Positions 16,580 through 49,877 of a stretch of DNA of 64,000 nt are shown here, one piece after another. Position numbers and translations under genes: made by a program. The notes below the pieces were generated by a model, which was given only the letters and a program-made list of their open reading frames with translations, had not been told where the DNA came from and ran no database searches. Each line of letters begins with the position of its first letter. The stretch's first letter is position 1. This DNA is from Myxococcota bacterium (GTDB lineage: Bacteria; Myxococcota_A; UBA9160; UBA6930). Location: the NCBI GenBank assembly GCA_036560185.1, contig DATBRS010000247.1, positions 6,049-70,048 on the forward strand. Direction: 5' to 3'.

Positions 16580-16607
16580 GCGCGCACGCAGCAGCCCCGC
16601 AGCGCCA

Positions 16608-19529: not shown

Positions 19530-20000
19530 GTGACTGAACGACCTGCCCAATCGACCGAGGCGGAGCTGCGCCGCGCGAAGCCGTTCATCAAGGCGATGAG
19601 CGCCGCGAACGTCTGGCTGTTTCGCCTGACGGGCGGGCGCATCGGCGCGAAGTTCCCCAACCACGGCTCGCCGGTCGGCTTGCTCACGACGCAGGGGCGC
19701 AAGTCCGGCGCGAAGCGCATCGCGCCGCTGATCTACCTGGCCGACGGCCCGCGCATCGTGCTGGTCGCCTCGCAGGGCGGGCTGCCGAAGCACCCGGTGT
19801 GGTTCCTCAACCTCGAGGCGAGCGGCGACGTCTCCTTCGAGACGCGCGAGACGGGCGTGCGCGCCTACCGCGCGCGGCGAGCGAGCGCGCAGGAGAAGAC
19901 CGCGCTCTGGCCGCGCCTGTGCGAGGTCTACCCCGACTACGCGAGTTATCAGGCGCGCACCGACCGCGACATCCCGGTGGTGGTGCTCGAGCCGCGCTGA
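19530..20000 (+). CDS. Deazaflavin (F420)-dependent nitroreductase-family protein (DUF385/Ddn-like)
   Basis: GTG start with a GGAG SD. The pattern RLTGGRIGAKF...LLTTQGRKSGAKRIAPLIYLADGPRIVLVASQGGLPKHPVWFLNL...YQARTDRDIPVVVLEP is characteristic of the family. Confidence 0.75.
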   Translation: MTERPAQSTEAELRRAKPFIKAMSAANVWLFRLTGGRIGAKFPNHGSPVGLLTTQGRKSGAKRIAPLIYLADGPRIVLVASQGGLPKHPVWFLNLEASGDVSFETRETGVRAYRARRASAQEKTALWPRLCEVYPDYASYQARTDRDIPVVVLEPR

Positions 20001-20008
20001 GCGCCGGC

Positions 20009-21550: not shown

Positions 21551-21592
21551 CGCCTCTCCCCGAGCGCTTAGTATGCGCGCTGGGGAGGATGC

Positions 21593-38103: not shown

Positions 38104-38433
38104 CTAGGCCGCTCGGGCCGAAGCGACGCGCGGCGCCGAGCGCAGAGCGCGCGCCTCGCGATGGATCAGATACAGCAGCGGCCCGGCGACGCCGAGCGCC
38201 AGCGTGATCGCGACGTAGGGCGCAAAGGGCGTGCGCGTCGCGCGCGAATCGCCGCGCATCCAGAGCAAGACGAGGCAGAGCGAGATCGTCAGGTCGACGC
38301 CCGCGAGCACGGTCGAGGTGCTGCGCAGCATCTCGACGTAGAAGCCGAGCAGGCCTGCGGTCGCGAGCACGTACGCGGTGAGGGCGAGGAACGGCAGCAG
38401 CACGGCGCTGTACACGAGTTGGCGAGTGGACAT
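38104..38433 (-). CDS. Small integral membrane protein (109 aa, DUF2834-like)
   Basis: ATG at 38433 with an AGGAGAA SD. It has three hydrophobic segments (VYSAVLLPFLALTAYVLATAGLLGF; LAGVDLTISLCLVLLWM; YVAITLALGVAGPLLYLI). Confidence 0.55.
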   Translation of the reverse strand: MSTRQLVYSAVLLPFLALTAYVLATAGLLGFYVEMLRSTSTVLAGVDLTISLCLVLLWMRGDSRATRTPFAPYVAITLALGVAGPLLYLIHREARALRSAPRVASARAA

Positions 38434-38590
38434 CGGGTTCTCCTGGGGGCTGCGGGAACTGAAGCGCCAGGTCGATGGGGCCGCGATTCCCCGAGAGGGA
38501 ACGAACGCCACACGGCTCCGAGAGCGCTGCTGCCCGCCCTGCGCCCGGCCCCTCCCCGCGGCGCATGCGTTCCGTATCTTGCGCGGACCC

Positions 38591-39655
38591 ATGGCCGCCC
38601 TCCTGCGAACGCCAGCGCCCCCCGCCGCTTCGAGCGCGGCCGCAGCGAGCCCGCCCGACTCGCTCGAGCGCGAGCTGGCGGCGACGCACCGCCCGCGGCC
38701 GGCGATTTATTGGGTGGACTTCCTCGCCTGCGTCGCGATCGGCTGGCCGGCTTTCGCGCTCGCGGTGGCGAGCTGGGGCAGCGGCGCCGCGTGGCTCGCA
38801 CTCGGCGTGGCGGTGTTCGCGCTCTACCGCGCCGCGCTCTTCATTCACGAGCTCACGCACCTCGCGAGCGGCGCGGTGCCCGGCTTCCTCGCGGCCTGGG
38901 ACGCGCTCGCGGGCTTCCCGCTGCTGGTTCCGAGCCTCATGTACGTGGGCTCGCACGGGGAGCACCACAAGGCGCACATCTTCGGCACCGCCGCGGATCC
39001 CGAGTACGCGCCGATCGCGCACTGGAGCCGGCCGCGGCTGCTCGTCGCGACACTGGGCATGCTGCTCATCCCCGCGGCGCTCGTGCTGCGCTGGGGCCTG
39101 CTCGTGCCGCTGGGAGCACTCGTGCCGGCGGTGCGGCGCTTCGCGATCACGCATCTCTCGACTCTCGCGATCAACGCGAGCTACGAACGCAAGCCGCCGA
39201 AGGGCGTGCTCAAGAAGCGCTGGCTCCGGGAAGAGCTCGGGTGCATGGCGGTGGTGTGGGCAGCGGGCGTGGCGCTCGCGCTCGGCGCGCTGCCCGTTCG
39301 CGCGCTCGCGCTCTGGTACGGGCTCGTCTCCGCGATCCTCATGATCAACCACCTGCGTACGCTCGGCGCGCACCGCTACGCGAACGAAGGCGCGGCGATG
39401 ACGCTCGACGAGCAGGTCGCGGACTCGGTGAACCTGTGGGGCCCCGCCTGGCTGCGTCCGCTCACCGCGCTGCTCGCGCCGGTAGGCCTGCGCTTCCACG
39501 CGCTGCATCACTTCTTCCCGACGCTGCCGTATCACGCGCTCGGCGCCGTGCATCGCCGGCTCGTGCGCGAGCTGCCCGCGGGCGCGGTCTACCGCACGAC
39601 CTCGCAGCCCGCGCTCACGAGCGCCCTGGTCGCGCTCGCGAACAAGCTGAAGTAG
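38591..39655 (+). CDS. Membrane fatty-acid desaturase/hydroxylase family protein (three His boxes)
   Basis: ATG at 38591. The His boxes are HELTH, HGEHH and HALHH, with TM segments between them. The HELxH...HxxHH layout recalls lipid and sphingolipid desaturases/hydroxylases. Confidence 0.75.
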   Translation: MAALLRTPAPPAASSAAAASPPDSLERELAATHRPRPAIYWVDFLACVAIGWPAFALAVASWGSGAAWLALGVAVFALYRAALFIHELTHLASGAVPGFLAAWDALAGFPLLVPSLMYVGSHGEHHKAHIFGTAADPEYAPIAHWSRPRLLVATLGMLLIPAALVLRWGLLVPLGALVPAVRRFAITHLSTLAINASYERKPPKGVLKKRWLREELGCMAVVWAAGVALALGALPVRALALWYGLVSAILMINHLRTLGAHRYANEGAAMTLDEQVADSVNLWGPAWLRPLTALLAPVGLRFHALHHFFPTLPYHALGAVHRRLVRELPAGAVYRTTSQPALTSALVALANKLK

Positions 39656-39667: not shown

Positions 39668-40633
39668 TCAGCGCAGCGCGCCGGAGCGAAGCAGGCGGAA
39701 GATCACGGGCCACGCGTAGAGGAGCGGGCGGCGACGTTGCCGTTCGCTGAGCTCGATCTTCGCTCCGCTGTGGCGCTCGACCTTCCAGACCGCGTAGGGC
39801 AGCCAACCCTGAAACGTGAACGCGGTCTTCAGCAGGCCAGCGATCGCGAGCGCCTTCGCGAGCGGACGTCGCGCGCGCCACGCCCGGCGGGCGCGCACGC
39901 GCTCGGCGAGCGGCTGCGCGACGCGCACGCTGGCCTCGTCGGCGTCCAGCAGCTCGATCTCGCCGCGCTCGGCGAGCGCGGCGAGCGCCGCGCGCAGCAC
40001 GGCGGCGTAGCGCGCGGGGTCGGCCGCCGCGATCGCGTCGATCGAGGCGGGGCGCTCGCTGCGCAGCTCGGCGCGATACGTCTCGCGGAACGCGTCGGCC
40101 CAGAGCGTGCGCACCGCGAGCGTTCGTTCGGGCGCATCGCCCGGAGCCCACGCGAGCATGCGCGACGCCATCGTGAGCGCCGCGGAAGCAGCGGCGGCGA
40201 CGATCGCGGTGCGCGCCTCTTCGTCGCGCGCCCACACCAGGCGCGCGGGCTGACAGAAGCGCGACCAGATGCGGCAGTCGACGCTCGCCGGCGTCGCCCG
40301 CCGCGCGAAATCCGCGAGCGAGATCAGCGCGTACTTCGCGCGCAGATTCTCCGCGCGCAGCTCGAGGTAGTGAACGTTCGGCGGCAACGCGGCGCCGAGC
40401 GCCGCGAGCGCGGAAGCGCCGTACGCGCCGCGGTAGCCGTCGACGATCACGTAGAAGTCGAGCACGCCTTCGCTGACGCCGCGGCGCAGGCACGAGCCGT
40501 AGAACAGCAGCGCGACGACGGCGGCGCCGTGGCGCGCGTGCAGCTCGCTCGCGAGGCGCTGCGCGCCGGGCAGCACCGGGCCCGCGAGCTCGGCCCGGAA
40601 GAGCGCCTCGAGAGCGTCGCGCGCGCTCGCCAA
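39668..40633 (-). CDS. Hypothetical protein, possible Tam41/Mmp37-like nucleotidyltransferase (phosphatidate-cytidylyltransferase-like fold)
   Basis: 321 aa. An NTase-type hG[GS]...D pattern (LLFYGSCLRRGVSEGVLDFYVIVD) is followed by HYLEL...LRAKYALISLADFARR and RIWSRFCQPARLV. As I recall, these parallel conserved Tam41 blocks. This rests on motif reading only. Confidence 0.35.
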   Translation of the reverse strand: MASARDALEALFRAELAGPVLPGAQRLASELHARHGAAVVALLFYGSCLRRGVSEGVLDFYVIVDGYRGAYGASALAALGAALPPNVHYLELRAENLRAKYALISLADFARRATPASVDCRIWSRFCQPARLVWARDEEARTAIVAAAASAALTMASRMLAWAPGDAPERTLAVRTLWADAFRETYRAELRSERPASIDAIAAADPARYAAVLRAALAALAERGEIELLDADEASVRVAQPLAERVRARRAWRARRPLAKALAIAGLLKTAFTFQGWLPYAVWKVERHSGAKIELSERQRRRPLLYAWPVIFRLLRSGALR

Positions 40634-40637
40634 ACGA

Positions 40638-41594
40638 TTAGGCGCGCGCGAAGCGCACGCTCTCCTCGGCGGTGATGGTGTAGGCGGCGTCGGCTTCGAT
40701 CGGGAACAGCTCGCCGTCCACGGTCACCTCGCAGCCGGCGCGCAGCGAGGCGCACGAGACTCGCGCGCTCGTGTAGCCGTGCTCCGGCGTCGCGAAGGCG
40801 GGGGCGCGGCCGCGCAGGATCTGCGGAATCGTGCGCGCCAGGCGCTCCGCGTTGCCTCGCACGAGCGTCGTGCGGATCGGCCCCTCGCCCGCTCCCCAAC
40901 AAGGCCGGAAGCCGAAGATCAGCCGCTCGAGCGTGGTGAACAGCGTGACCAGGCGCCGTTCATCGGGCAGCGGCTTGCCGTCGAACGCGAGCCCGATCTC
41001 GTCGGGATGCATCAGCGCGCCACGCGCGCCCGTGAGGATGTTGGCGACCAGCGTGCACGTGACGAGCGCGACGCCGATCGTCTCCTGCAGCCGCCCTTTC
41101 GGCAGATGGCGCGTGGTGAGCGACACGGCGCGCCCGAGCATGCCCGCCGCGGCGAACATGCCGCAGCGCACCTCACCGCTTCGCTGGCGCGCGACGCGCA
41201 ATACCGCGCGCGATGCGATGCGCGCCTCCAGCTTGCCCGCGCGCGCGTCCGCGACGATCTCGCGCAAGCCCTGCGCGCCGTCGCGCACGGCGCCGAGATC
41301 GGCCGCGGTCATGTTGGTTCGGCCGCCGCGAATCGGCGCGATCACCGGCAGCCAGCTCGGCCGGCCGGTCGCGAGCAGCGCGGTGAGGGCGCATTCGAGC
41401 GTGCCGTCGCCGCCGTTGACGATCAGTAGCTCGACGTCCGCGCGGCGCATCCGCTCGATCGCCTCGGGCACCGCGGCCGCCGAGGGCGTCGCGAAGTGCA
41501 TCACGTCGGGGGCACCCTCGACCTCGCGCAGGATGCGCTCGCCGAGGCGCTTGTTGCGGCCGGCGCGCAGGTTGTTGAGGAGGCCGATGCGCAA
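40638..41594 (-). CDS. Diacylglycerol-kinase catalytic-domain (DAGK_cat/LCB5/YegS-type) lipid kinase
   Basis: 318 aa. It has the signature LLIVNGGDGTLECAL and the pattern IAPIRGGRTNMTAADLG. TTG start. Confidence 0.75.
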   Translation of the reverse strand: MRIGLLNNLRAGRNKRLGERILREVEGAPDVMHFATPSAAAVPEAIERMRRADVELLIVNGGDGTLECALTALLATGRPSWLPVIAPIRGGRTNMTAADLGAVRDGAQGLREIVADARAGKLEARIASRAVLRVARQRSGEVRCGMFAAAGMLGRAVSLTTRHLPKGRLQETIGVALVTCTLVANILTGARGALMHPDEIGLAFDGKPLPDERRLVTLFTTLERLIFGFRPCWGAGEGPIRTTLVRGNAERLARTIPQILRGRAPAFATPEHGYTSARVSCASLRAGCEVTVDGELFPIEADAAYTITAEESVRFARA

Positions 41595-41633: not shown

Positions 41634-42581
41634 CTACTGGTAGAACGTGTAGCTCGCGATCGCCGTACCCTCGCGCCGCGCCGCCCGCGCGCCCTCGCGC
41701 ACGTCGATCGCGAACGGTGACGCCATCCACGCCGACCGCAAGCGCAGCCCGAGCACGAAGCGGATGGGCGCCGGCAGGTCGGCGAGCGGGTCGTAGCTGG
41801 CGAGCGGCGCGCCCGCGCTCAGCACGCCGGGCGCGAGCGGGCCCGCCAGCGCGAGCCGCGCGGCCGGAGCGTCGAGCTTCTCGTTCGGAACCTGCGTCGC
41901 ACTCTCTTGCGCGAGCAGCTTGCCGTGCGCGTCGAACGCGACGACCCAGCGCTCGGCGCGCTTTCCGTTCGCGACCTCGAGCACGTAGATCGGCGCGGCG
42001 CCGAGGGTGAAGGCCTCGAGGCGGCGCTGCGCGAGCTTGGACTCCGGCCCTTCGATCTTGCGCCGCGAGAGCGCGACGCGGCCCTTGCCGGCGAGCGGTG
42101 CCGCCATGCCGCGCTTCCAGAACGACGCATTCAGCGGAGCGCCGGCGGCCCATAATTCCTGCGTCCACTTTCCGCCGGCGAGCGTGTGGGTGGCGAGCGG
42201 CGCCGCCGCGAGCGGGAAATCGAGCGTCAGCTGCAGACTCTTCTTCTCGACGCGCAGCTGCGCGCGCGGCTGCGTGCGATCGAACACGAACTTGCCGAGG
42301 TCGATGCGCTTGCCGTCGGGGCTCGGCGTCCATGCGCCGCCGAGCTTCGCGCGCGAGAAGGGCGTGAGCGCGCCGTCCGGCGCGAGCCAGTTGCCGATCG
42401 CCGCTGCGTTGCGCTCGCCGGGCCCGATGTCGGTGAGCGTGAACTCGACGAACACTTGCTCGCCAGAATCGAGCCGCGCGGCGAGCAGCCACCATTCGGT
42501 CGGCGCCGCGTGCGCGGCGGCAGCCGCCGCAAGCCCGAGCCCACACGACCAGCGCAGCACGGCAGCGAGCATGCGGAACAC
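41634..42581 (-). CDS. Secreted protein of unknown function (possible AttH/CrtC-type lipocalin-like fold)
   Basis: Signal peptide MFRMLAAVLRWSCGLGLAAAAAAHA. The mature N-terminus APTEWWLLAARLDSGEQVFVEFTL recalls the EWWY motif of AttH-like lipocalin domains, which is weak evidence. It lies inside the lipid operon. Confidence 0.4.
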   Translation of the reverse strand: MFRMLAAVLRWSCGLGLAAAAAAHAAPTEWWLLAARLDSGEQVFVEFTLTDIGPGERNAAAIGNWLAPDGALTPFSRAKLGGAWTPSPDGKRIDLGKFVFDRTQPRAQLRVEKKSLQLTLDFPLAAAPLATHTLAGGKWTQELWAAGAPLNASFWKRGMAAPLAGKGRVALSRRKIEGPESKLAQRRLEAFTLGAAPIYVLEVANGKRAERWVVAFDAHGKLLAQESATQVPNEKLDAPAARLALAGPLAPGVLSAGAPLASYDPLADLPAPIRFVLGLRLRSAWMASPFAIDVREGARAARREGTAIASYTFYQ

Positions 42582-42587: not shown

Positions 42588-43754
42588 TCAGCGCTGCGAG
42601 GCCATCTGCGCGAGCGCGATCTCTTCCTCCCACGGGCGCAGCGTGCGGCCGGCCGCGCGCAGCGCGAGCGCGTGCGCGAGCCGCGCGACGTGGAACGCGA
42701 TCGAGAGGCCCGTCCACCAGGCCACCGCTTCGAAGCCGAGCGCCGGCGAGCCGGCGAGCGTGCAGAGCGTCAGCAGCACGAGGTTGGGATTGCGGCGCGC
42801 CGTAATCAGTCGAAAGAAGGAATCGAGCGGCCGCCACGAGTGCGTCTCGAATCCGCACGCGAGCATGAAGACGCCCTCGAGCAGACGGCCGGCGACGTAG
42901 CCGCCGATCACGACGAGCGCGGCCGGGGATTGGAGGCCCACGCCGATGCCGAGCGCCCACGCGGCCCACCAGACGGGTGGATGCGCGAGGTCGAGCCCGT
43001 GATCGAGCCAGTGCCCGATCGGCGACGAGCTCTGCGTGACGCGCGCGAGCTTGCCGTCGACCGTGTCGAGGAAGGTCATGCACCACGCGGCGCCGAGGCC
43101 GAGGCCGAACTCGCCGTGCGCGAACGCGAACGTCGCGTAGAGCACGAGCGCCCAGCTCATCAGCGTGACGACGTTCGGCGTGATGCCGAAGCGCGCGCAC
43201 GCTCTCACGACGCGGAACGCGAGCGGGGGCCACGCGTACTTCGTGATGAAATCCGTGACGCCCTTGTAGGACGCGTCGAACAGTGCCCGCTCGATCTCCG
43301 CCGCGTTCCCCGGCGTCGCGATGCGCAGCAGCGGAGGCGCGAGCTTGCGCAGCTCCGGCGTGTAGGCGGGCGCGAGCTGTTCGGCGCTGCGCACGGCGAC
43401 CCCGCCGAGCGGCGCACCGCCCGCGAGCCATGCCGCGGCTTCCGCGGCGCGCTCGCCCGCGACCACCGCGGCGGCCGGCCCCGCGCTCTCCGCGACCAGC
43501 GCGACGGGGTCGCCCGTGAGCAGCTGCTTCGCGATGCGCTCGTCGAGCACCGCGTCGCCGCGCACGAGCAGCACGAGCTCCCCGTCGCGAGCGGCTCCCG
43601 CACTCGCGCCGCCGGCGCTGACCTCGCCTGCGCCCGCGCGCGAGAAGGTCTGCGCGAGGCGCGCGTCGCTGCGCTGCGCGAACAGGACGGGGAGGGGCGC
43701 GCCGGAGGGCGCGAGCACGAACACGCGGCGCGCAGCGGCCTCGGCGCCGCTCAT
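42588..43754 (-). CDS. Fusion of a degenerate nucleotidyltransferase-like domain to a CDP-alcohol phosphotransferase (copy 1)
   Basis: ATG at 43754 (GAGGAG upstream). The C-terminal half carries the family motif DTVDGKLARVTQSSSPIGHWLDHGLD (D-G-x2-A-R...G-x3-D-x3-D) within multiple TM helices. The N-terminal ~190 aa are alpha/beta-like (VFVLAPSG...LVLLVRGDAVLDERI). It is a paralog of 45633..46931. Confidence 0.75.
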   Translation of the reverse strand: MSGAEAAARRVFVLAPSGAPLPVLFAQRSDARLAQTFSRAGAGEVSAGGASAGAARDGELVLLVRGDAVLDERIAKQLLTGDPVALVAESAGPAAAVVAGERAAEAAAWLAGGAPLGGVAVRSAEQLAPAYTPELRKLAPPLLRIATPGNAAEIERALFDASYKGVTDFITKYAWPPLAFRVVRACARFGITPNVVTLMSWALVLYATFAFAHGEFGLGLGAAWCMTFLDTVDGKLARVTQSSSPIGHWLDHGLDLAHPPVWWAAWALGIGVGLQSPAALVVIGGYVAGRLLEGVFMLACGFETHSWRPLDSFFRLITARRNPNLVLLTLCTLAGSPALGFEAVAWWTGLSIAFHVARLAHALALRAAGRTLRPWEEEIALAQMASQR

Positions 43755-43781
43755 TCGCTCCTCATCCGCGCGCAGCGTTGC

Positions 43782-44759
43782 GTGCCCATTCGCATCCTCG
43801 AGTCGGGCTCCCAGCGACCGGCGCGTATCATAGGCCGGTACGCTCTGGAGGTCGCCGCGCTGTTCCGGCTCGCCCACGTTTCCGATCTGCACGCTACGCG
43901 CGTGCGCTTCTCCGGCCTCGCTGAGCTGAACGCGAAGCGCGCGCTCGGCTGGCTCTCCTGGCAGGTGCGGCGGCGCCGCAAGTACCGGCCCGAGATCGCG
44001 GCGCGCGTGATCGACGATTTGGTCGCGAGCGCCCCCGATCACGTCGCGGTGACCGGCGATCTCACGCACATGGGCCTCGACGCGGAAGTCGCGGAAGCCG
44101 CGGCGTGGCTCGCGCGGCTCGGCCCGCCCGAGCGCGTGACGCTCGTCCCCGGAAATCACGACGCGTATGGCGCGCGGCTCGATCACGCCTGCATGGACGC
44201 ATGGCGCCCCTATTTAAATTCAGACCAGGGCGCGCGGGGCGCGACGCGAGCGGCGGCGCCCTTCCCCAGCCTGCGCGTTCGCGGTCCGGTGGCGCTCGTG
44301 GGCCTCAGCTCCGCCGTGCCCACGCCGGTGCACCTCGCGACCGGGCGCGTCGGCGAGGCGCAGCTCGCCGCGTTGCCCGACCTGCTGCGCGACCTCGCTG
44401 CGCGCAAGCTCTGCCGCGTCGTGCTCGTCCACCACCCGCCGACGCGCGCGCACGTCTCGTGGCGGCGGCGCCTCGAAGACGGCCCCGCGCTGTGCCGGAT
44501 CCTCGCGCGCGCCGGCGCCGAGCTGGTGCTGCACGGGCACACCCATCGCGCCGCGCGCGACGCGATCGCGAGCGCGCATGGGCCGATCCCGGTGCTCGGC
44601 GTGCCCGCGACGTCCTCCGCCGTGCGCGCTCGGCCGGGCGCTTATCAGGTGTTCTCGATCGCAGAGCGCGGCGCAGGCGGCTACGCGATCTCGCGCGAGC
44701 TGCGCGAGATCAGCGGCGTATCAGGCCCGCTGCGCTCGCTCGGCAGCGAATCGCTCTAG
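43782..44759 (+). CDS. Calcineurin-like metallophosphoesterase
   Basis: Motifs are HVSDLH, VTGDLTH, PGNHD, LVHHPP and VLHGHTH. The start is uncertain. GTG at 43782 is the first canonical start, but a CTG at 43860 sits 8 nt after a GGAGG and would give the typical N-terminus (M)FRLAHVSDLH. Confidence 0.75.
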   Translation: MPIRILESGSQRPARIIGRYALEVAALFRLAHVSDLHATRVRFSGLAELNAKRALGWLSWQVRRRRKYRPEIAARVIDDLVASAPDHVAVTGDLTHMGLDAEVAEAAAWLARLGPPERVTLVPGNHDAYGARLDHACMDAWRPYLNSDQGARGATRAAAPFPSLRVRGPVALVGLSSAVPTPVHLATGRVGEAQLAALPDLLRDLAARKLCRVVLVHHPPTRAHVSWRRRLEDGPALCRILARAGAELVLHGHTHRAARDAIASAHGPIPVLGVPATSSAVRARPGAYQVFSIAERGAGGYAISRELREISGVSGPLRSLGSESL

Positions 44760-44761
44760 GG

Positions 44762-45568
44762 CTAGGCCCCGCGTTTCAGCAGCCGCTCGACGAGCGCGAA
44801 ATCCTCGAGCTTGTCGACGTCGATGCCCGCGCGGCCGTCCGCGAGCCGCACGGCGCCGATGCGCGCGCCGCTGGCTCGCGAGATCGCCTCGAGCGCGGCC
44901 TCGAGGGGCAGGCGCCCGGCCATGAAGCGCGCGAGCGTGACCGCGCCGAACACCGCGGCGAGGCGCCAGGGCTCCTTGCGGAAGCCCTCGGCTCTGCGCC
45001 AGAACGCGGCGACGCGCGCGGCGCCGGGCGTGCGCGCCAGGAACAAGTTCGCGCCGGTGAAGCGCTCGCGGCCGAGCCGCAGCCAGGTTCGCTTGTTATG
45101 GGGAGCGACTGCGAGCACCGCCAGGTCGGGCACGAGCGCCACGCACAGGTCGTTCCCGCTCGCGAGCGCGTCGTCGAGGAATGCGCTGACCGTGGCGGCC
45201 GCGAGCAGCGGATGATCGGCGGTCGTCACCAGCACGAGCGCACTCGCGCTGCGCTCGACGAAATCGCGCACGCTGTCCGCGGGCGACGAGCCGCTCGCGT
45301 GCAGCGCGAGCTCGCCGGAGGCGAACGCGGGGCCGAACTCAGGATGGCGCCGCAGCGCCTCGGGGTCGTCGATGCTGATCGTGATCTGCCCGACCGCCGG
45401 CACGGCGCGCAGCGCCTCCAGCACGTACGAGAGCAGCGGCCGCCCATGCATCGGCGCCAGCGCCTTGTGCGTGACCCCCGCCGCGCGCGCGATCGGCTCC
45501 TCGCCGCCGCGCCGGCCGGCGAGCACGAGCGCAGCCACCGTCTCCGTTCGCTTCGGCTTCGTGAGCAC
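44762..45568 (-). CDS. MobA-like (NTP_transf_3) nucleotidyltransferase family protein
   Basis: 268 aa. The N-terminus AALVLAGRRGGEEPIARAAGVTHKALAPMHGRPLLSYVLEAL and the later LVTTADHPLL are typical of this fold. Confidence 0.65.
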   Translation of the reverse strand: MLTKPKRTETVAALVLAGRRGGEEPIARAAGVTHKALAPMHGRPLLSYVLEALRAVPAVGQITISIDDPEALRRHPEFGPAFASGELALHASGSSPADSVRDFVERSASALVLVTTADHPLLAAATVSAFLDDALASGNDLCVALVPDLAVLAVAPHNKRTWLRLGRERFTGANLFLARTPGAARVAAFWRRAEGFRKEPWRLAAVFGAVTLARFMAGRLPLEAALEAISRASGARIGAVRLADGRAGIDVDKLEDFALVERLLKRGA

Positions 45569-45632
45569 GCGCCGCGATTAGAGCACATCTGCCGGAGCCG
45601 GACGGCGCGCGGGCGCGCGCAGCGCCCACGAT

Positions 45633-46931
45633 ATGCTGCCGCGCGCTGCAGGGAGTGGCCGCGTGTCAGCGATTCGTTTCGCGATCTGGATCGACGCGAC
45701 TCCTCCCGAGAGCGCGCTGCGCGTCTTCGGCATGTCGCTCGTCGAGCGGCTGCTCGCCGCCGTCGCACAGCTCGCGGGTGCGAAGAACGCGCGCTTCGCG
45801 CTCGCGAGCGTCGTGGTGGAGCACGCGCCGGCGGCCGCGCCGCGGCTGCGTGCCGATCTCGCGGCGCGCCTCGGCGCGACGCTCGCCGAGGCGCGCGGCA
45901 CGCTTTCCGAGCGCATCGCGCGCGCCGCCGCGCGCGACGCGAACGCCGTGCTGCTCGCGCTGCCAGGCGACGCCATCGTCGACACGCGCGTGCTCGCCGA
46001 GTTGCTGCGCGAAGCGGATAGCGCGATCGCTCTCGCGGACGAGGGTGCACGACGCACGGCGCTGGTGCGCCTCGCGGCGAGCGCGGTGCCGGCGCCGGCG
46101 AGCGCGAACGATCTGCGCGGCCTCGCCGAGGCGCAGCGCGCCGCGGGCACAGCGCGCGTGCTCCCGCTCTCGGCGATTGCGGAGCACATCGCCGACCTGC
46201 GGCGCGATCAGCCGGCCTATGCGTTTCGGCTCGCCGCGAGCGAGGTCGCGTCCACCGAGCGCTGGCTGTTCTGGTCGAACTACAAGGGCTCGACCGACTT
46301 CCTGACGCGCTTCGTCTTCCCACCTTTCGTGTGGGCAGCGGTGCGCCCGCTCGCGCGCCTCGGCGTCCACCCGAATTGGGTGACGGGGCTGGCGGTGCTG
46401 CTGTGCTTCGGTGCGATCCCGCTCTGGGCGCATGGACATTGGGCGCTCGGCTTCGCGGCCGCCTACGGGATGGCGGTGCTCGATTCCGTCGACGGCAAGC
46501 TCGCGCGCCTCACCTTCACCGCCTCGACGCTCGGGAACGTGATGGACCACGGAACCGACATCCTGCATCCGCCGTTCTGGTACGCGGCGTGGGCGTGGGG
46601 TCTGGCCGGTGGACCTCACGGCCCGGTCTACGAGCTCACGCTCTGGATGTTCGGGCTGTACACGCTCGACCGGCTGGTCGCGCCGATCTTCCGCGCGATG
46701 ACGCAGAAGTCGATCCACGGCTACGCGCCGATCGACGTCGCGATGCGCACGTTCATCTCGCGGCGCAACGTCAACCTGCCGGTCTTCACCGTCGCGCTGC
46801 CGCTCGGGCTCGGCGCCGAGGCGATCGTGCTCGTGGTGGCGTGGCAGGCCGCGTGCTTCGTGTTCCACGCGGTGCGCTGCGCGCAGGTGGCGATCAGCCT
46901 CGAGCGCAGCGCGAGCCGGGCGACGCGGTGA
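45633..46931 (+). CDS. Fusion of a degenerate nucleotidyltransferase-like domain to a CDP-alcohol phosphotransferase (copy 2; IPCT/DIPPS-like architecture)
   Basis: Motif LDSVDGKLARLTFTASTLGNVMDHGTDILHPP within TM helices. The N-terminal domain resembles an NTase (ALPGDAIVDTRVLAELL), but the Gly-rich loop reads AIWIDATPPES. The junction ERWLFWSNYKGSTDFLTRFVFPPF matches copy 1 (ERALFDASYKGVTDFITKYAWPPL). An alternative GTG start at 45663 has a better GGGAG SD. Confidence 0.75.
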   Translation: MLPRAAGSGRVSAIRFAIWIDATPPESALRVFGMSLVERLLAAVAQLAGAKNARFALASVVVEHAPAAAPRLRADLAARLGATLAEARGTLSERIARAAARDANAVLLALPGDAIVDTRVLAELLREADSAIALADEGARRTALVRLAASAVPAPASANDLRGLAEAQRAAGTARVLPLSAIAEHIADLRRDQPAYAFRLAASEVASTERWLFWSNYKGSTDFLTRFVFPPFVWAAVRPLARLGVHPNWVTGLAVLLCFGAIPLWAHGHWALGFAAAYGMAVLDSVDGKLARLTFTASTLGNVMDHGTDILHPPFWYAAWAWGLAGGPHGPVYELTLWMFGLYTLDRLVAPIFRAMTQKSIHGYAPIDVAMRTFISRRNVNLPVFTVALPLGLGAEAIVLVVAWQAACFVFHAVRCAQVAISLERSASRATR

Positions 46932-47075: not shown

Positions 47076-48239
47076 GTGCGCGTCTGCTTCCTGTTCAACC
47101 ACTACGCCACGCACCAGCTGATGCACGCCGCGCCGTTCGCGTTCGAGCTCTCGCGCCGGCACGCGAAGGCGGAGGTGGTCGTCGCCTGCACGAGCGAGGA
47201 GCAGCTGCACGCGGCGCGGCGCATCGCGGAGCTCTATCCCGGCCAGCGCGCGGAGTTCGTGCGGCTGCGCATGTCGCTGCTCGACCGCGTCGCGGCGGCA
47301 GCGCTCGCAGGCTTCACCTTCCTCGCCAAGAAGCGAATGCTCGCCAGCAACCTCGACTTCTTCCGCGGCTTCGACGCCGTCGTCGCGCCCGAGCGCACGA
47401 TGCTGAAGCTGCGCACGAAGCACGGCCTGGCGCACGTGAAGCTGATCAACGCGCGGCACGGTCAGGGCGATCGCGAGGGCAGCTTCGACGCGCGCACGCG
47501 CGAGCTCGATCTCACCCTCGTGGGCGGCCGGAAGTACATCGAGCGCTTCGCCGAACACGAGATCCTGCGCGAGGGCCACACCGCGATCGTCGGCTACCCG
47601 AAGTTCGAGGTGTGCGACGCGCTGCCGGCGCCGCCGCGCTTCTTCGAAAACGACCGGCCGGTAGTCGTCTACAACCCGCACTTCGACGCGACGGAATCGT
47701 CCTGGCAGACCCAGGGCCGCGCGGTGCTCGCTTGGTTCGCAGCGCAGGCCGAGTACAACCTGATCTTCGCGCCGCACGTCGTGCTGTTCGCGCGCGCCTG
47801 GCGCCATCGCGCGCGCGTCCCGCGGCGAATTCGCGAGGCGCGCAACATCTTCGTGGACACCGGCAGCGAGGCGAGCGTCGACATGACCTACACGCGCGCC
47901 GCGGACATCTATCTCGGCGACGCGAGCAGCCAGGTCTACGAGTTCATCGCGAAGCCGCGGCCCTGCGTGTTCATCGACGCCCAGCGCGCGCGCGCGGCCG
48001 CGCCCGCGAAGTACGCGCACTGGCGCTTCGGGCCCGTGATCGAACGCGCCGATCAGCTGGGCGAAGCGCTCGCGCGTGCGCGGCGCGACTTCCCCGCGTA
48101 CCTCGCCGCGCAGCGCGATGCGTTCGCCTACACCTTCTCCACCGACGCAGCGCGCACCCCGGGACAGCGCGGCGCCGACGCGATCTACGAGTTCCTCGAG
48201 AAGGGCCGCATCGTGTCGGAGTGCTACCGCGCGGGCTGA
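47076..48239 (+). CDS. GT-B-fold transferase, TagB/TagF (CDP-glycerol glycerophosphotransferase)-like
   Basis: 387 aa. VVYNPHFD... and AADIYLGDASSQVYEFIAKPRPCVFID parallel the YAPT.../LITDYSSvxFDF blocks of the Glyphos_transf family. This is a tentative assignment. Confidence 0.4.
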   Translation: MRVCFLFNHYATHQLMHAAPFAFELSRRHAKAEVVVACTSEEQLHAARRIAELYPGQRAEFVRLRMSLLDRVAAAALAGFTFLAKKRMLASNLDFFRGFDAVVAPERTMLKLRTKHGLAHVKLINARHGQGDREGSFDARTRELDLTLVGGRKYIERFAEHEILREGHTAIVGYPKFEVCDALPAPPRFFENDRPVVVYNPHFDATESSWQTQGRAVLAWFAAQAEYNLIFAPHVVLFARAWRHRARVPRRIREARNIFVDTGSEASVDMTYTRAADIYLGDASSQVYEFIAKPRPCVFIDAQRARAAAPAKYAHWRFGPVIERADQLGEALARARRDFPAYLAAQRDAFAYTFSTDAARTPGQRGADAIYEFLEKGRIVSECYRAG

Positions 48240-49012
48240 CGCGCCGGCGCATCTTCGATCGGCGCGGCGCGGCTCTTGCGGCGGCTCTCGAAGAGCCGAT
48301 GCGCCCACTCGGCATCGCCCGCGACCAGGCGATTCGCCTCCGCGATGGCGCGCCGCAGGATCAGCATGCGACGGCGCCACAGCATGCGCGGCACGCTGCG
48401 CGTTGCAGTTGTGCGCGAGAAGCGCTCGTGCCGCAGCGCGCTGAGGCCCGAGGGCGGCAGCCCGAGGTAGGCCTCGACGCGCGCGAGCGAGCGCGCCGGC
48501 TCGGCGATCAGCTCGGAAGATTCGAGCACGAGCTTGTCGCCGTCATGCGCGCGCCAGCCCTCGGCGAAGCGGCGGAGCTCGTCGCTGAGCCCCGTCGCCC
48601 GGCCGCGCTGCTGCCAGCCGCGCTCCGAGAAGCAGAACGCGAACTCGTAGCTCTTGGTGGGCCACGCTCCGGTCTCCTCGCCGCGCCGGTAGGCGGAGAC
48701 GATCTCCTCGGCGTCTCGTAACAAGATCACCTTCGGCACGCGCTGCAGCACCGCTTGGTTCCGCGGCGTCGGCGGGAAGTGGAACTTCGCGAGCCGATCG
48801 CGCGCGGCCAGCACGCCCGCGACGCGCTCGTCGAGCTCGACGAAATCGCGGCGGTGGAACTGCGCGGCGTGCCAGTAGCCCGGCGCGATCGGGCGCCGGA
48901 GCAACACCTCGTCGCGGATGCGGCGCGTATCGACGGACAGGGCATGCGTTGCGGCCAACGTCTCGACGAGCGCGCTGCTCGCGCTCTTCGGGATGGCGAC
49001 GATCAGGCTCAC
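48224..49012 (-). CDS. Sulfotransferase-family protein (PAPS-dependent type)
   Basis: It has a 5'-PSB-like motif IVAIPKSASSAL, a 3'-PB-like motif KVILLRDAEEIVSAYRR, and a C-terminal block LESSELIAEPARSLARVEAYLGLP. The ATG overlaps the upstream NTase stop by 4 nt. Confidence 0.55.
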   Translation of the reverse strand: MSLIVAIPKSASSALVETLAATHALSVDTRRIRDEVLLRRPIAPGYWHAAQFHRRDFVELDERVAGVLAARDRLAKFHFPPTPRNQAVLQRVPKVILLRDAEEIVSAYRRGEETGAWPTKSYEFAFCFSERGWQQRGRATGLSDELRRFAEGWRAHDGDKLVLESSELIAEPARSLARVEAYLGLPPSGLSALRHERFSRTTATRSVPRMLWRRRMLILRRAIAEANRLVAGDAEWAHRLFESRRKSRAAPIEDAPARQPAR

Positions 49013-49779
49013 GCGCCGGGCTCCACCGAGCGCGGCGACTCGCGCGCTCGCGCGCGCGCCGCGAGCCCTTTGCGCACCGCCTCGAGGTCATCGAGCGAAT
49101 CGATCTCTCCCCACCACAGGCCTTCCATCGAGCACGCGCGCACGAGCCCGTGGCGCGCGAGCTCGCCGATCGCGGTGGTGTAGTAGGCGCGCTGCTGGCC
49201 GTAGCGGCGCACGAGCTGCTCGAAGCTCTCGCGGATCGCGACCGCTCCCGAGCCGCGCAGCAGCGTCATGCCGATCGCCTCGCCTTGGCTCTCCGGCGGT
49301 TCGAGATCCTTGCCGATCGCCCTCACCAGCCCGCGCTCCAGGCACACCTTCATGTCGTCGTCGTCGTAGCTCGGCTTCACGTTGACCACGATCGTGACGG
49401 GGCTCGGCGGCGCGGCGAAGAGCCGCTCGACGACCGCGCCCTCGAACAGCGTGTCGCCGTTCAGGAGCACGCACTCGCCGTCGAAATCGCGGCTCGCGAG
49501 CCAGGCCGTGATCAGGTTGTCGGCCTGATCGAAGAACGGGTTGTATCGGACCCGCAGTGCGAGGCCGGGCACCGGCGCAGCGGCCGCGAAGCGCTCGACC
49601 TTCTCGATGCCGTAGCCCGCCATCACCACGGCTTCGCGCACACCGTGGGCCGCGAGCTCGCGCAGCTGCACCTCGAGCACCGAGCGGTCGCCGTCGACGG
49701 GCACGAGGCACTTCGGCAGATCCCGCGTCACGGGGAACAGGCGCCGGCCTTGCCCCGCGCTCAGGATGATGGCTCGCAC
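49009..49779 (-). CDS. NTP_transferase-family nucleotidyltransferase (LicC / phospho-alcohol cytidylyltransferase-like)
   Basis: GTG at 49779 with a GGAGAG SD. It has the Gly-rich loop RAIILSAGQGRRLFPVTRDLPKCLVPV, LLNGDTLF, and WGEIDSLDDLE at the C-terminus. Confidence 0.75.
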   Translation of the reverse strand: MRAIILSAGQGRRLFPVTRDLPKCLVPVDGDRSVLEVQLRELAAHGVREAVVMAGYGIEKVERFAAAAPVPGLALRVRYNPFFDQADNLITAWLASRDFDGECVLLNGDTLFEGAVVERLFAAPPSPVTIVVNVKPSYDDDDMKVCLERGLVRAIGKDLEPPESQGEAIGMTLLRGSGAVAIRESFEQLVRRYGQQRAYYTTAIGELARHGLVRACSMEGLWWGEIDSLDDLEAVRKGLAARARARESPRSVEPGA

Positions 49780-49877
49780 CGTGGTGGCTCTCCGTTCCGC
49801 GCGTTCCCGCTGCGCCGAGGCTGGCGCGCATTGTCGTCTACCGGACCGATTCAACAAGGTGGGTAAGCTGCGCGCGC

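What the first reader, a model, noticed from the sequence alone, without database searches (positions are those of the whole stretch)
42588..46931. Two paralogous fusions of a degenerate nucleotidyltransferase domain to a CDP-alcohol phosphotransferase (IPCT/DIPPS-like architecture) facing each other
Seen: 42588..43754 (-) and 45633..46931 (+) share the same layout. Each has about 190 aa of soluble alpha/beta domain, a conserved junction (ERALFDASYKGVTDFITKYAWPP versus ERWLFWSNYKGSTDFLTRFVFPP), and a polytopic domain with an intact D-G-x2-A-R...G-x3-D-x3-D motif. In both, the position of the NTase Gly-rich loop (G-x-G-T-R-L) is not conserved (VLAPSGAPLPV; AIWIDATPPES). Between them lie a metallophosphoesterase and an intact MobA-like NTase. 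A LicC-like NTase is 2 kb further on.

Established: fusion of a cytidylyltransferase to a CDP-alcohol phosphotransferase is the hallmark of archaeal and thermophile IPCT/DIPPS, which makes and then consumes CDP-inositol.

Inference: here the fused NTase modules look catalytically dead and may serve as docking or regulatory domains, with stand-alone NTases supplying the CDP-alcohol. Two paralogs imply two headgroups or two acceptors (ceramide versus diacylglycerol).
Basis: partly seen in the sequence, partly recalled or inferred. Interest (0 to 1): 0.7.

Follow-up and report, generated by a model that had tools for sequence, protein, structure and literature searches.

The report
Twin sphingolipid head-group transferases, dead cytidylyltransferase domains
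Two related membrane enzymes, each carrying a burnt-out nucleotide-activating domain, sit inside a bacterial sphingolipid gene island that matches the Caulobacter ceramide-diphosphoglycerate locus; one is the counterpart of the known but biochemically untested CpgA, and the other is an undescribed second copy.

Summary
42588-43754(-) (A) and 45633-46931(+) (B) are true paralogs (35% identity over 365 aa, E 4e-48). Each has an intact CDP-alcohol phosphotransferase motif behind an N-terminal cytoplasmic domain. A high-confidence model of B (pLDDT 93) matches A. fulgidus IPCT-DIPPS and AF2299 best, and its N-domain matches GlmU, RmlA, MurU and IspD. That domain has the nucleotidyltransferase fold but lacks the Gly-rich loop and Lys, and the metal Asp is not conserved.

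The genes lie in a ~19 kb sphingolipid island in a Myxococcota MAG. It matches the Caulobacter CPG2 locus nearly gene for gene: lipid kinase (CpgB-like), Tam41-fold protein (CpgC position), metallophosphoesterase, MobA/CofC-like and LicC-like NTases, LptF/G and SPT. A is the positional counterpart of CpgA. B is a separate, old paralog family with no counterpart in the published Caulobacter locus or the Roseomonas cluster. It is conserved with A in Myxococcota, Binatia, Dongiaceae and on an IncP plasmid.

Most likely both build phosphodiester head groups on ceramide from CDP-activated donors. Which step B performs is unresolved. I rate it a new variant of a known kind, of moderate interest.

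The parts
42588..43754 (-). Paralog A: pseudo-NTase N-domain plus CDP-alcohol phosphotransferase, 388 aa. Positional counterpart of Caulobacter CpgA.
   Evidence: A-HMM 571 bits against B-HMM 248. Synteny.
43305..43754 (-). A, N-terminal cytoplasmic NTase-like domain (about residues 1-150). The site of the Gly-rich loop (residues 13-23, 43686-43718) is degenerate. Invariant residues are R65, D71, R73, Y131, L135 and R136.
   Evidence: Weak match of family profile positions 23-50 to residues 14-40 of the AF2299 N-domain.
43224..43292 (-). A, conserved juxtamembrane junction ERALFDASYKGVTDFITKYAWPP (residues 155-177).
42990..43067 (-). A, catalytic CDP-alcohol phosphotransferase motif D230...D255.
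45633..46931 (+). Paralog B: pseudo-NTase N-domain plus CDP-alcohol phosphotransferase, 432 aa. A distinct paralog family with no counterpart in the published Caulobacter locus.
   Evidence: B-HMM 616 bits against A-HMM 245.
45633..46247 (+). B, N-terminal NTase-fold domain (residues 1-205). The degenerate loop AIWIDATPPES lies at 45681-45713. Invariant residues are D21, R39, D117, R119 and R190.
46257..46325 (+). B, conserved junction ERWLFWSNYKGSTDFLTRFVFPP (residues 209-231).
46482..46559 (+). B, catalytic motif D284...D309.
43782..44759 (+). Metallophosphoesterase, divergent from A (start uncertain). Counterpart of CC_1158.
44762..45568 (-). Intact MobA/CofC-like NTase, divergent from B. 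Counterpart of CC_1153.
   Evidence: Present near B in 50 of 80 loci.
39668..40633 (-). Tam41-fold (CDP-DAG-synthase-like) protein at the CpgC position.
   Evidence: AF2 pLDDT 92.9. Foldseek top matches are Tam41 structures 6IG4, 6IG2 and 7ECD, E 4e-8. 46% identical in the alignment (tblastn 45% over 196 aa) to the gene after the kinase in Roseomonas. IPR015222 is reported for CC_1161.
40638..41594 (-). DAGK_cat lipid kinase, CpgB-like candidate ceramide kinase.
41634..42581 (-). Conserved protein of unknown family between the kinase and A, with a hydrophobic N-terminus.
   Evidence: Present in 20 of 80 loci.
47076..48239 (+). TagF-like CDP-glycerol glycerophosphotransferase family protein. 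Same InterPro family as CC_1167.
   Evidence: Absent from all 80 related loci.
49009..49857 (-). LicC/MurU-like NTase. Candidate counterpart of CpgD (CC_1152), the CTP:phosphoglycerate cytidylyltransferase.
   Evidence: Present in 43 of 80 loci.
49878..52136 (+). Fused LptF-LptG permease, the sphingolipid-locus Lpt paralog.
53057..54205 (+). Serine palmitoyltransferase-like PLP enzyme, with an SDR immediately downstream (54284-55084).
38378..39655 (+). Fatty-acid desaturase or hydroxylase family protein at the edge of the A module.

Best explanation
A and B are paralogous inner-membrane CDP-alcohol phosphotransferases dedicated to building an anionic phospho-head group on ceramide. They are not housekeeping phospholipid synthases.

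Each is a fossil of an IPCT/DIPPS- or AF2299-type fusion. The N-terminal cytoplasmic domain keeps the nucleotidyltransferase fold. It has lost the Gly-rich loop and Lys that hold the NTP, and the canonical metal-binding Asp is not conserved. It therefore no longer makes the CDP-donor. The C-terminal six-helix domain keeps the full D-G-x2-A-R...G-x3-D-x3-D catalytic motif.

The donors come from stand-alone enzymes in the same island:
- A LicC-like NTase, the counterpart of CpgD, which in Caulobacter makes CDP-glycerate.
- A MobA/CofC-like NTase.
- A Tam41-fold protein that plausibly turns ceramide-1-phosphate (made by the adjacent lipid kinase) into CDP-ceramide.

A is the counterpart of Caulobacter CpgA. 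By that genetics it most likely transfers phosphoglycerate from CDP-glycerate onto ceramide-phosphoglycerate, releasing CMP.

B is an old second paralog that is absent from the published Caulobacter locus and from the Roseomonas-type cluster. It is inserted in the lptF-lptG / NTase operon. It most likely catalyses the other phosphodiester-forming step: either CDP-ceramide plus glycerate or phosphoglycerate giving the first unit, or the addition of a further unit.

Shown here: paralogy, folds, motifs, synteny, and the separation of A and B into two families. Inferred: the substrates, the order of steps, and the idea that the pseudo-NTase domain serves as a structural, donor-binding or docking module.
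For: Paralogy and intact catalytic motifs.

Fold of B. The AF2 model has pLDDT 93.1. Its top PDB matches are 4MND IPCT-DIPPS (E 4.7e-11, 454 columns) and AF2299 (TM-score 0.76 on the target). NTase-fold enzymes GlmU, RmlA, MurU and IspD match the N-domain at E about 1e-4. Three of 28 B-family members hit Pfam NTP_transf_3, best E 2e-5.

Degeneracy of the N-domain. 'IWIDAT' (B) or 'vWIL' (A) replaces L-A-G-x-R-G. The segment carrying the conserved Lys is deleted. In the profile alignment to the intact MobA-like family, the catalytic Asp of 'TADHP' aligns to B D113, which varies in the B family.

Context.
- The order FAdes / Tam41-like / kinase / A | MPE ... MobA | B ... LicC / LptFG / SPT recurs in Myxococcota, Binatia and Dongiaceae. 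A was found with B in 42 of 80 loci from the genome scan anchored on B.
- The Roseomonas mucosa plasmid cluster reads LptG-LptF-HIT-MPE | CDP-AP-kinase-Tam41-like ... SPT-ACP. This is collinear with the published CC_1155 to CC_1163 order, and its single CDP-AP scores as A-type (410 against 218 bits).
- Published genetics: CpgA (PF01066, with an N-terminal cytoplasmic domain) is needed for CPG to CPG2, and CpgD makes CDP-glycerate.
- The CpgC-position protein has the Tam41 fold.

Not housekeeping: every NCBIfam equivalog hit is far below its cutoff, for example PIPSynth at 36 bits against 170.
Against: - I could not obtain the Caulobacter CpgA, CpgC or CpgD sequences, so orthology of A rests on collinearity with a Roseomonas proxy plus the literature gene order.
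- In S. wittichii and H. neptunium the best CpgA homolog sits among the NTases and the HIT gene, with no metallophosphoesterase. That is closer to B's neighbourhood, so the mapping of CpgA onto A rather than B could be lineage-dependent.
- Gene linkage points the opposite way to the Caulobacter genetics. A is tightly linked to the kinase and the Tam41-like gene, which are the makers of a CDP-ceramide donor. B is linked to the soluble NTases.
- The head group may not be phosphoglycerate. LicC-like NTases also make CDP-choline, CDP-ethanolamine or CDP-glycerol, and a TagF-like gene is present.
- Several invariant polar residues in the N-domains show the domain is under selection. These are the D-x-R pair (B D117/R119, A D71/R73), the L-R pair (B L189/R190, A L135/R136) and R39 in B. 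A non-canonical catalytic role cannot be excluded from sequence alone.
Confidence: 0.62

Rival explanations
1. Same enzymes and pathway logic, but a different head group. The LicC-like and MobA-like NTases would make CDP-glycerol, CDP-ethanolamine or CDP-choline. A and B would then make ceramide phosphoglycerol or ceramide phosphoethanolamine type lipids, or one of each, rather than phosphoglycerate units.
For: The LicC-like NTase's best solved relatives are MurU and LicC (CTP:phosphocholine cytidylyltransferase). A TagF-like CDP-glycerol glycerophosphotransferase family gene follows B. Ceramide-phospho-glycerol is reported in a Zymomonas mutant. No sequence comparison with CpgD was possible.
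Against: The island reproduces nearly the whole head-group gene set reported for CPG2 (CC_1161, 1160, 1159, 1158, 1153, 1152, 1167 and the lptFG paralogs). The HIT-family gene (CC_1157) was found only in related loci. The TagF-like gene is absent from all 80 related loci, so it is not part of the conserved A/B system.
Confidence: 0.18
2. IPCT/DIPPS-like inositol chemistry. A and B would be inositol-phosphoceramide or inositol-phosphate transferases using CDP-inositol supplied by the stand-alone NTases.
For: The top structural match of B is IPCT-DIPPS 4MND. The weak NCBIfam hits are to archaetidylinositol-phosphate, PIP synthase and IPCT/DIPPS models.
Against: All of those hits are far below cutoff, for example 22.6 bits against 580 for IPCT/DIPPS. 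No inositol-1-phosphate synthase was found among the predicted genes of the window that I scanned. The neighbours match the CPG2 locus instead.
Confidence: 0.05
3. The N-domains are still active, non-canonical cytidylyltransferases, so A and B are truly bifunctional like IPCT/DIPPS.
For: Invariant polar residues persist in both N-domains (D-x-R, L-R). Three B-family members still hit NTP_transf_3.
Against: The Gly-rich loop and the Lys segment are deleted, and the Asp aligned to the catalytic Asp is variable. N-domains are much less conserved than the membrane domains, at 0.36-0.37 against 0.60-0.62 mean pairwise identity. Two or three intact stand-alone NTases are encoded alongside.
Confidence: 0.07
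4. Ordinary housekeeping phospholipid synthases (PgsA, PssA or PIPS) that happen to lie near sphingolipid genes.
For: JGI names many homologs 'phosphatidylglycerophosphate synthase'.
Against: No equivalog cutoff is reached. There is an extra N-domain and a family-specific Arg-rich C-terminal motif (D-x3-R-T-x2-[AS]-R-R-N-x-N). Linkage to sphingolipid genes is conserved across phyla and on plasmids.
Confidence: 0.03

Closest known systems
CpgA (CCNA_01217 / CC_1159) of Caulobacter crescentus, in the ceramide diphosphoglycerate (CPG2) pathway
   Same: It has a PF01066 domain preceded by an N-terminal cytoplasmic domain. It lies in an operon with the ceramide kinase and the Tam41-domain CpgC, next to a metallophosphoesterase, a HIT protein, lptF2/G2 and two NTases. 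A has the same neighbours, and the collinear Roseomonas cluster carries an A-type enzyme.
   Different: CpgA has genetic evidence only and its activity has never been assayed. Its N-domain has not been described as a pseudo-NTase in the papers I read. Caulobacter has one such enzyme whereas this island has two.
AF2299 of Archaeoglobus fulgidus (PDB 4O6M, 4O6N, 4Q7C)
   Same: It is a CDP-alcohol phosphotransferase with an N-terminal 'cytidylyltransferase-like' cytosolic domain and binds a soluble CDP-alcohol, CDP-glycerol. The B model aligns over about 412 columns with TM-score 0.76 on the target. It is the best profile hit for the B family (E 1.9e-8) and second best for the A family (E 1.4e-10). 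The motif (F/L)G(L)T..ER(L/I)...L.RAG is shared with its N-domain, though that match is weak.
   Different: It is archaeal with unknown physiological substrates and no sphingolipid context. Sequence identity is about 14-16%.
IPCT/DIPPS bifunctional enzyme (PDB 4MND)
   Same: It has the same two-domain order and a homologous junction. It is the top Foldseek hit, and the profile matches run across the junction.
   Different: Its NTase domain is catalytically active and makes CDP-inositol. Here the NTP-binding elements are missing, and it is the stand-alone LicC-like NTase that resembles the IPCT domain (NF041135, E 8.6e-12).
PgsA / PIP synthase logic: a CDP-lipid donor made by a CDP-DAG synthase, with the product trimmed by a phosphatase
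   Same: The island encodes a lipid kinase, a Tam41-fold candidate CDP-lipid synthase, CDP-alcohol phosphotransferases and a phosphoesterase.
   Different: The lipid would be ceramide-1-phosphate rather than phosphatidic acid. CDP-ceramide has never been demonstrated and is only suggested in the literature.

Membership tests
CDP-alcohol phosphotransferase superfamily (PF01066) | D-G-x2-A-R...G-x3-D-x3-D motif on TM2-TM3, and a Pfam score above the gathering threshold. | tested here: met
   A scores 39.8 bits and B 34.4 bits against a cutoff of 22. All eight motif residues are invariant in both family alignments.
CDP-alcohol phosphotransferase superfamily (PF01066) | Polytopic, roughly six-helix membrane domain with the fold of the solved members. 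| tested here: met
   The AF2 model of B has pLDDT 93. Foldseek matches to AF2299, PIPS, DIPPS and PgsA1 have probability 1.00. For A this is inferred through hhalign to B.
IPCT/DIPPS bifunctional enzymes | N-terminal domain with the nucleotidyltransferase fold, fused upstream of the transferase. | tested here: met
   4MND is the top hit over 454 columns, and NTase-fold enzymes match the N-domain.
IPCT/DIPPS bifunctional enzymes | Catalytically competent NTase: Gly-rich loop G-x-G-x-R, conserved Lys and a metal-binding Asp. | tested here: not met
   The loop and the Lys segment are absent, and the aligned Asp is variable.
IPCT/DIPPS bifunctional enzymes | Equivalog-level sequence score and inositol-phosphate supply genes. 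| tested here: not met
   NF041135 gives 22.6 bits against a cutoff of 580 for A and no hit for B. No inositol-1-phosphate synthase was found among the predicted genes of the window that I scanned.
AF2299-type CDP-alcohol phosphotransferases with a non-catalytic cytidylyltransferase-like domain | A degenerate or truncated CT-like cytosolic domain packed on the transferase. | tested here: met
   Foldseek TM-score 0.74-0.76 on the target across both domains. The domain is described in the literature. There is a weak N-domain sequence match.
CpgA family (CPG2 pathway) | PF01066 enzyme with an N-terminal cytoplasmic domain. | tested here: met
   compared with the description of CC_1159.
CpgA family (CPG2 pathway) | Gene linkage to cpgB (lipid kinase), cpgC (Tam41-domain protein) and the CC_1158-type phosphoesterase. 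| tested here: met
   Met for A. For B the feature is not met: B is linked instead to the MobA-like NTase, lptFG and the LicC-like NTase.
CpgA family (CPG2 pathway) | Direct sequence orthology to CCNA_01217. | not testable with these tools
   No Caulobacter sequence could be fetched.
CpgA family (CPG2 pathway) | Requirement for the CPG to CPG2 conversion, with use of CDP-glycerate. | not testable with these tools
   Genetic evidence exists in Caulobacter only. No biochemical assay has been published as of the 2026 preprint.
Housekeeping PgsA / PssA / PIP synthase | Equivalog score above the NCBIfam cutoff. | tested here: not met
   For A, PIPSynth gives 36.1 bits against 170 and pssA gives 12.3 against 107. 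For B, PIPSynth gives 30.2 bits against 170 and pssA gives 13.3 against 107.

The most novel reading that the evidence does not exclude
B is the 'missing' enzyme of bacterial phosphosphingolipid synthesis, a CDP-ceramide:(phospho)glycerate phosphotransferase. The Tam41-fold CpgC-like protein would make CDP-ceramide from ceramide-1-phosphate, and B would consume it, exactly as PgsA consumes CDP-diacylglycerol. A (CpgA-type) would then extend the head group from CDP-glycerate. The pseudo-NTase domains would be retained as CDP-donor capture or hand-off modules that dock the soluble NTases. This would establish a CDP-ceramide branch of lipid metabolism and a pseudoenzyme-mediated channeling mechanism.
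Probability: 0.18. Interest if true: 0.8.

Novelty: new variant of a known kind. Interest (0 to 1): 0.55.

Why it matters
The ceramide-diphosphoglycerate pathway lets Caulobacter survive without lipid A. Its chemistry is still open: the activity of CpgA has not been assayed, and the mechanism of CpgC is stated to be unidentified as of 2026.

This locus contributes four things:
1. The CpgA family has the IPCT/DIPPS- and AF2299-type architecture with a dead cytidylyltransferase domain. That gives a structural template and a set of invariant residues to mutate.
2. A second, widely conserved paralog (B) exists. It could be the unidentified condensing enzyme postulated in the literature, or a head-group extender.
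3. The CpgC-position protein has the Tam41 fold, which supports a CDP-ceramide intermediate.
4. Cultured carriers of both paralogs exist (Dongia soli, Dongia sedimenti), as do plasmid-borne versions that could serve as experimental systems.

It also extends this lipid system from Alphaproteobacteria to Myxococcota and Binatia.

Tried and rejected
- **Caulobacter sequences.** CpgA, CpgC and CpgD could not be retrieved. The genome scan returned only the best 80 B-type loci. The CpgD structure is not detectable in the PDB copy.
- **Sequence-only searches of the N-domains.** These gave nothing. There was no Pfam or NCBIfam hit for the window proteins. PDB sequence and profile searches hit only the membrane domain. 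A phmmer search with B's N-domain against 1.84 billion representatives found only 34 proteins (9 at E <= 1e-10), ranging from 121 aa pieces to 456 aa proteins of fusion length.
- **Tam41 by sequence.** A sequence profile of the CpgC-like family did not find Tam41 in the PDB (best E 0.56, to a generic NTase). Only the predicted structure did.
- **Donor type.** I considered using PDB and NCBIfam hit order to decide whether A or B uses a CDP-lipid or a CDP-alcohol donor. The rankings do not discriminate.
- **F420 role for the MobA-like NTase.** I considered that it serves F420 biosynthesis, because F420-type enzymes occur elsewhere in the window. I rejected this because the gene is syntenic with B in 50 of 80 loci.
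- **Reference tree.** I did not build a tree with PgsA, Pis, PssA, CPT or DIPPS because reference sequences could not be imported. HMM cross-scoring was used instead to separate A from B.

Full report

The window is about 71% G+C. The ORFs 42588-43754(-), here called A (388 aa), and 45633-46931(+), here called B (432 aa), are present. They coincide with independent public gene calls at 99% identity: P0121, named 'Myxococcota bacterium', for A, and P0001 for B.

BLASTP of A against B gives 35% identity over 365 residues with E 4e-48. A profile-profile comparison of 28-member alignments of each family gives 100% probability and E 5.9e-75 over 362 columns, starting in the first beta-strand of the N-domains.

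Pfam detects only PF01066 (CDP-alcohol phosphatidyltransferase) in the C-terminal halves, above threshold in both proteins. Every residue of the D-G-x2-A-R...G-x3-D-x3-D motif is invariant in both families, and so is the junction E-R-x-L-F...Y-K-G-x-T-D.

There are three small corrections:
- The two genes are transcribed away from each other (<-A MPE-> <-MobA B->), not towards each other.
- A's soluble domain is about 150 aa, because B carries an extra stretch at about residues 57-100.
- The phosphoesterase cannot start at 43890. The only canonical start upstream of its D-x-H motif is the GTG at 43782.

**2. What are the N-terminal domains?**

Sequence searches see nothing for the window proteins. 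However, 3 of 28 B-family members hit Pfam NTP_transf_3, with best E 2e-5.

An AlphaFold2 model of B built on the family alignment is confident (mean pLDDT 93.1, pTM 0.88). Foldseek against the PDB ranks A. fulgidus IPCT-DIPPS (4MND) first, at E 4.7e-11 over 454 columns. AF2299 follows with TM-score 0.74-0.76 on the target. After the membrane-only CDP-alcohol phosphotransferases come the classical nucleotidyltransferases GlmU, RmlA, MurU and IspD, at E about 1e-4 and probability 1.00.

The domain is degenerate in specific ways:
- Where NTases have L-A-G-x-G/R-x-R and, some 15 residues later, the conserved Lys, the B family has 'IWIDAT' followed after only 8 residues by 'RVFGMSLLER'. The A family has 'vWIL...FGL..ER'.
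- I aligned the intact neighbouring MobA-like family, which carries L-A-G-R-R-G, S-H-K, T-A-D-H-P and D-V-D, to the B profile.
- In that alignment 'RVFGMSLLER' falls on the NTase segment that follows the Lys, and the catalytic Asp of T-A-D-H-P falls on B D113, a position that varies within the B family. This alignment is weak, at probability 34% and E 4e-4.
- The N-domains evolve faster than the membrane domains. Mean pairwise identity is 0.36-0.37 against 0.60-0.62.

The domain is nonetheless constrained. A D-x-R pair (B D117/R119, A D71/R73), an L-R pair (B L189/R190, A L135/R136) and an Arg on the first helix (invariant R39 in B, nearly invariant R32 in A) are conserved in both families.

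Searching B's N-domain alone against 1.84 billion representative proteins finds only 34 hits, 9 of them at E <= 1e-10. The hits range from 121 aa pieces to 456 aa proteins of fusion length, so the domain is rare at the sequence level.

[quoted passage not shown] The A-family profile even aligns its 'FGLT..ERL.RSL.RAG' segment with AF2299 residues 14-40, 'LLGLTLRERIEKTLQRAG'. That match is weak on its own.

**3. What is the context?**

Pfam, NCBIfam and fold analysis of the neighbours give the following gene map:

| Coordinates | Assignment |
|---|---|
| 35925-37154 | P450 |
| 38378-39655 | Fatty-acid desaturase or hydroxylase |
| 39668-40633 | No Pfam match; AF2 model (pLDDT 92.9) best matched by Tam41 CDP-DAG synthases (6IG4, 6IG2, 7ECD; E 4e-8) |
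| 40638-41594 | DAGK-type lipid kinase |
| 41634-42581 | Conserved protein of unknown family |
| 42588-43754 | A |
| about 43782-44759 | Metallophosphoesterase |
| 44762-45568 | MobA/CofC-like NTase |
| 45633-46931 | B |
| 47076-48239 | TagF-like glycerophosphotransferase |
| 48224-49012 | Weak sulfotransferase-like protein |
| 49009-49857 | LicC/MurU-like NTase |
| 49878-52136 | Fused LptF-LptG permease |
| 52215-53021 | CAT-like acyltransferase |
| 53057-54205 | Serine-palmitoyltransferase-like enzyme |
| 54284-55084 | SDR |

The published Caulobacter CPG2 locus reads as follows:

| Gene | Function as published |
|---|---|
| CC_1152 | CpgD, CTP:phosphoglycerate cytidylyltransferase |
| CC_1153 | MobA/CobY/CofC-like NTase |
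| CC_1154 | bCerS |
| CC_1155, CC_1156 | LptG2, LptF2 |
| CC_1157 | HIT protein |
| CC_1158 | Phosphoesterase |
| CC_1159 | CpgA: PF01066, 'an N-terminal cytoplasmic domain' |
| CC_1160 | CpgB, ceramide kinase |
| CC_1161 | CpgC, carrying the Tam41 InterPro domain IPR015222 |
| CC_1162 | Spt |
| CC_1167 | IPR007554 glycerophosphotransferase |

The correspondence with the window is nearly gene for gene.

**4. Evidence from related loci**

A scan of species-representative genomes with B-family motifs found 249 relatives. The best 80 come from Myxococcota, Candidatus Binatia, Dongiaceae/Rhodospirillaceae and other MAGs, and from the cultured strains Dongia soli D78 and D. sedimenti R-7.

tblastn of the window's proteins against these loci shows two recurrent modules:
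- The A module reads [desaturase]-Tam41-like-kinase-[unknown]-A | phosphoesterase. A plus the phosphoesterase occur in 37 of the 80 loci, and the kinase and the Tam41-like gene accompany them in 34-35 loci.
- The B module reads MobA-like NTase next to B (50 of 80 loci), with the LicC-like NTase (43 of 80) and LptFG (26 of 80) nearby.

HMMs built from the two families separate every CDP-alcohol phosphotransferase cleanly, at about 390-640 bits for the protein's own family against 175-270 for the other. Of the 80 loci from the genome scan anchored on B, 42 also contain an A-type gene within 10 kb (its counter also includes the window and two plasmid loci).

In Dongia soli the order is ACP-SPT | Tam41-like-kinase-A (reverse strand) | MPE-HIT-LptF-LptG-B-(391 aa)-MobA-like | LicC-like. 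Apart from the orientation of the A module, this is the Caulobacter order with B inserted after lptG.

A tblastn of A against plasmids found three further cases:
- Roseomonas mucosa megaplasmids carry LptG-LptF-HIT-DUF2141-MPE | CDP-AP-kinase-Tam41-like ... SPT-ACP. This is collinear with CC_1155 to CC_1163, and the single CDP-AP is A-type (410 against 218 bits).
- An IncP plasmid of Diaphorobacter carries both an A-type and a B-type gene.
- An IncP plasmid of Pseudomonas carries A-type only.

I conclude that A is the positional counterpart of CpgA. B is a distinct, old paralog that is absent from the published Caulobacter locus and from the Roseomonas-type cluster.

One caveat applies. In S. 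wittichii and H. neptunium the best CpgA homolog lies among the NTases and the HIT gene with no phosphoesterase. I could not classify those proteins.

**5. How does it most likely work?**

Established by others:
- CpgB phosphorylates ceramide.
- A cpgC deletion keeps ceramide-1-phosphate but lacks CPG.
- Deletions of cpgA, cpgD or CC_1153 keep CPG but lack CPG2.
- CpgD makes CDP-glycerate.
- CpgA is 'presumed' to use it, and no CpgA assay exists.

Shown here:
- The CpgA-type enzyme and its paralog are AF2299- and IPCT/DIPPS-type fusions with a non-canonical NTase domain.
- The CpgC-position protein has the Tam41 fold.

Inferred:
- The kinase plus the Tam41-like protein can supply CDP-ceramide, an idea already raised by Olea-Ozuna et al..
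- The LicC-like and MobA-like NTases supply soluble CDP- or NDP-activated head-group units.
- A and B each form one phosphodiester with release of CMP.
- The phosphoesterase trims a phosphate or an NDP.
- LptFG exports the product.

By the Caulobacter genetics, A should be the CDP-glycerate:CPG transferase. B would then be either the unidentified enzyme that condenses CDP-ceramide with glycerate or phosphoglycerate, or an enzyme that adds a further unit.

Gene linkage argues for the opposite assignment. A sits with the makers of CDP-ceramide, and B sits with the makers of CDP-glycerate. I cannot resolve this.

The Arg-rich motif D-x3-R-T-x2-[AS]-R-R-N-x-N, invariant in both families, fits an anionic substrate, but this is inference only.

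The pseudo-NTase domain could have any of three roles:
- It could be structural, as in AF2299, where it stabilises the transferase.
- It could be a remnant CDP-donor binding site.
- It could be a docking surface for the soluble NTases.

No result here discriminates among these.

**6. Rivals**

- A different head group (phosphoglycerol, phosphoethanolamine or phosphocholine) remains possible, because the LicC-like NTase could not be compared with CpgD.
- Inositol chemistry is unlikely. No inositol-1-phosphate synthase was found among the predicted genes of the window that I scanned, and the equivalog scores are far below cutoff.
- A housekeeping PgsA or PssA role is excluded by scores, architecture and synteny.
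- Residual NTase activity is unlikely given the missing elements, but has not been disproved.

**7. Novelty and verdict**

The pathway and CpgA are known genetically, and the 'CT-like domain plus CDP-AP' architecture is known structurally from AF2299 and DIPPS.

Three points were not described in the papers I could read:
- The identification of the CpgA family as such a pseudo-NTase fusion.
- The existence, distribution and distinct genomic linkage of the B paralog.
- The extension of the locus to Myxococcota, Binatia and IncP plasmids.

I rate it a new variant of a known kind, with interest 0.55. It would rise to about 0.8 if B proves to be a CDP-ceramide-dependent synthase.

Noticed in passing
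window 47076-49012: A TagF-like glycerophosphotransferase (PF04464) and a weak sulfotransferase-like gene sit between B and the LicC-like NTase. Neither has a tblastn match (E < 1e-8) in any of the 80 related loci, including the locus whose B ortholog is 80% identical (L001). They look like a genome-specific insertion that could add a further head-group decoration. Caulobacter CC_1167 carries the same InterPro family.
   Followed up: partly
window 49878-52136: LptF and LptG are fused into one 752 aa ORF (two PF03739 stretches) inside the sphingolipid island. A 2026 preprint states that Myxococci have only a single lptFG, so this Myxococcota MAG appears to have a dedicated sphingolipid-locus copy like Caulobacter lptF2/G2.
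   Followed up: partly
window 39668-40633: A 'hypothetical' protein with no Pfam or NCBIfam hit is predicted with pLDDT 92.9 to have the fold of the Tam41 CDP-DAG synthases (Foldseek E 4e-8). It occupies the CpgC position. This supports a CDP-ceramide intermediate, which has not been demonstrated in the papers I read.
   Followed up: yes
window 52215-53021: A CAT-like acyltransferase (2-oxoacid_dh catalytic domain, E 1.7e-6) lies between LptFG and SPT and is present only in the four closest loci. No GNAT-type bCerS was found among the cluster genes, so this may be an alternative ceramide N-acyltransferase.
   Followed up: no
L082 (Diaphorobacter pDCB2) 3959-16757; L083 (Pseudomonas pPNP1) 10925-22985: The head-group and LptFG module (A-type with or without B-type CDP-AP, kinase, Tam41-like protein, phosphoesterase, both NTases) occurs without an SPT gene in the stretch shown. 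It sits on IncP plasmids from soil and activated-sludge isolates, beside mer genes, IS6100 and a class 1 integron. This could mean horizontal spread, or use of a diacylglycerol rather than a ceramide anchor.
   Followed up: partly
L081 (Roseomonas mucosa plasmid NZ_CP025062.1) 4607-17571: Megaplasmids of the human-skin bacterium Roseomonas mucosa carry a cluster collinear with the Caulobacter CPG2 locus, with a single A-type CDP-AP. The stretch shown has a MobA-like NTase but no LicC/CpgD-like one.
   Followed up: partly
L015 11282-13042: In a Binatia chromosome where no A-type gene lies within 10 kb, B is followed directly by an MsbA-like ABC exporter (ABC_membrane plus ABC_tran), a possible lipid flippase.
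   Followed up: no
window 41634-42581: A 315 aa protein with a hydrophobic N-terminus and no family match is conserved between the kinase and A in 20 of 80 loci. Its function is unknown.
   Followed up: no
window 16608-21604 and 19530-20000, 60134-61141: Elsewhere in the window there are an alkyl sulfatase, an arylsulfotransferase-like gene, an F420H2-dependent quinone reductase and a luciferase-like monooxygenase. I saw no link between these and the finding.
   Followed up: no
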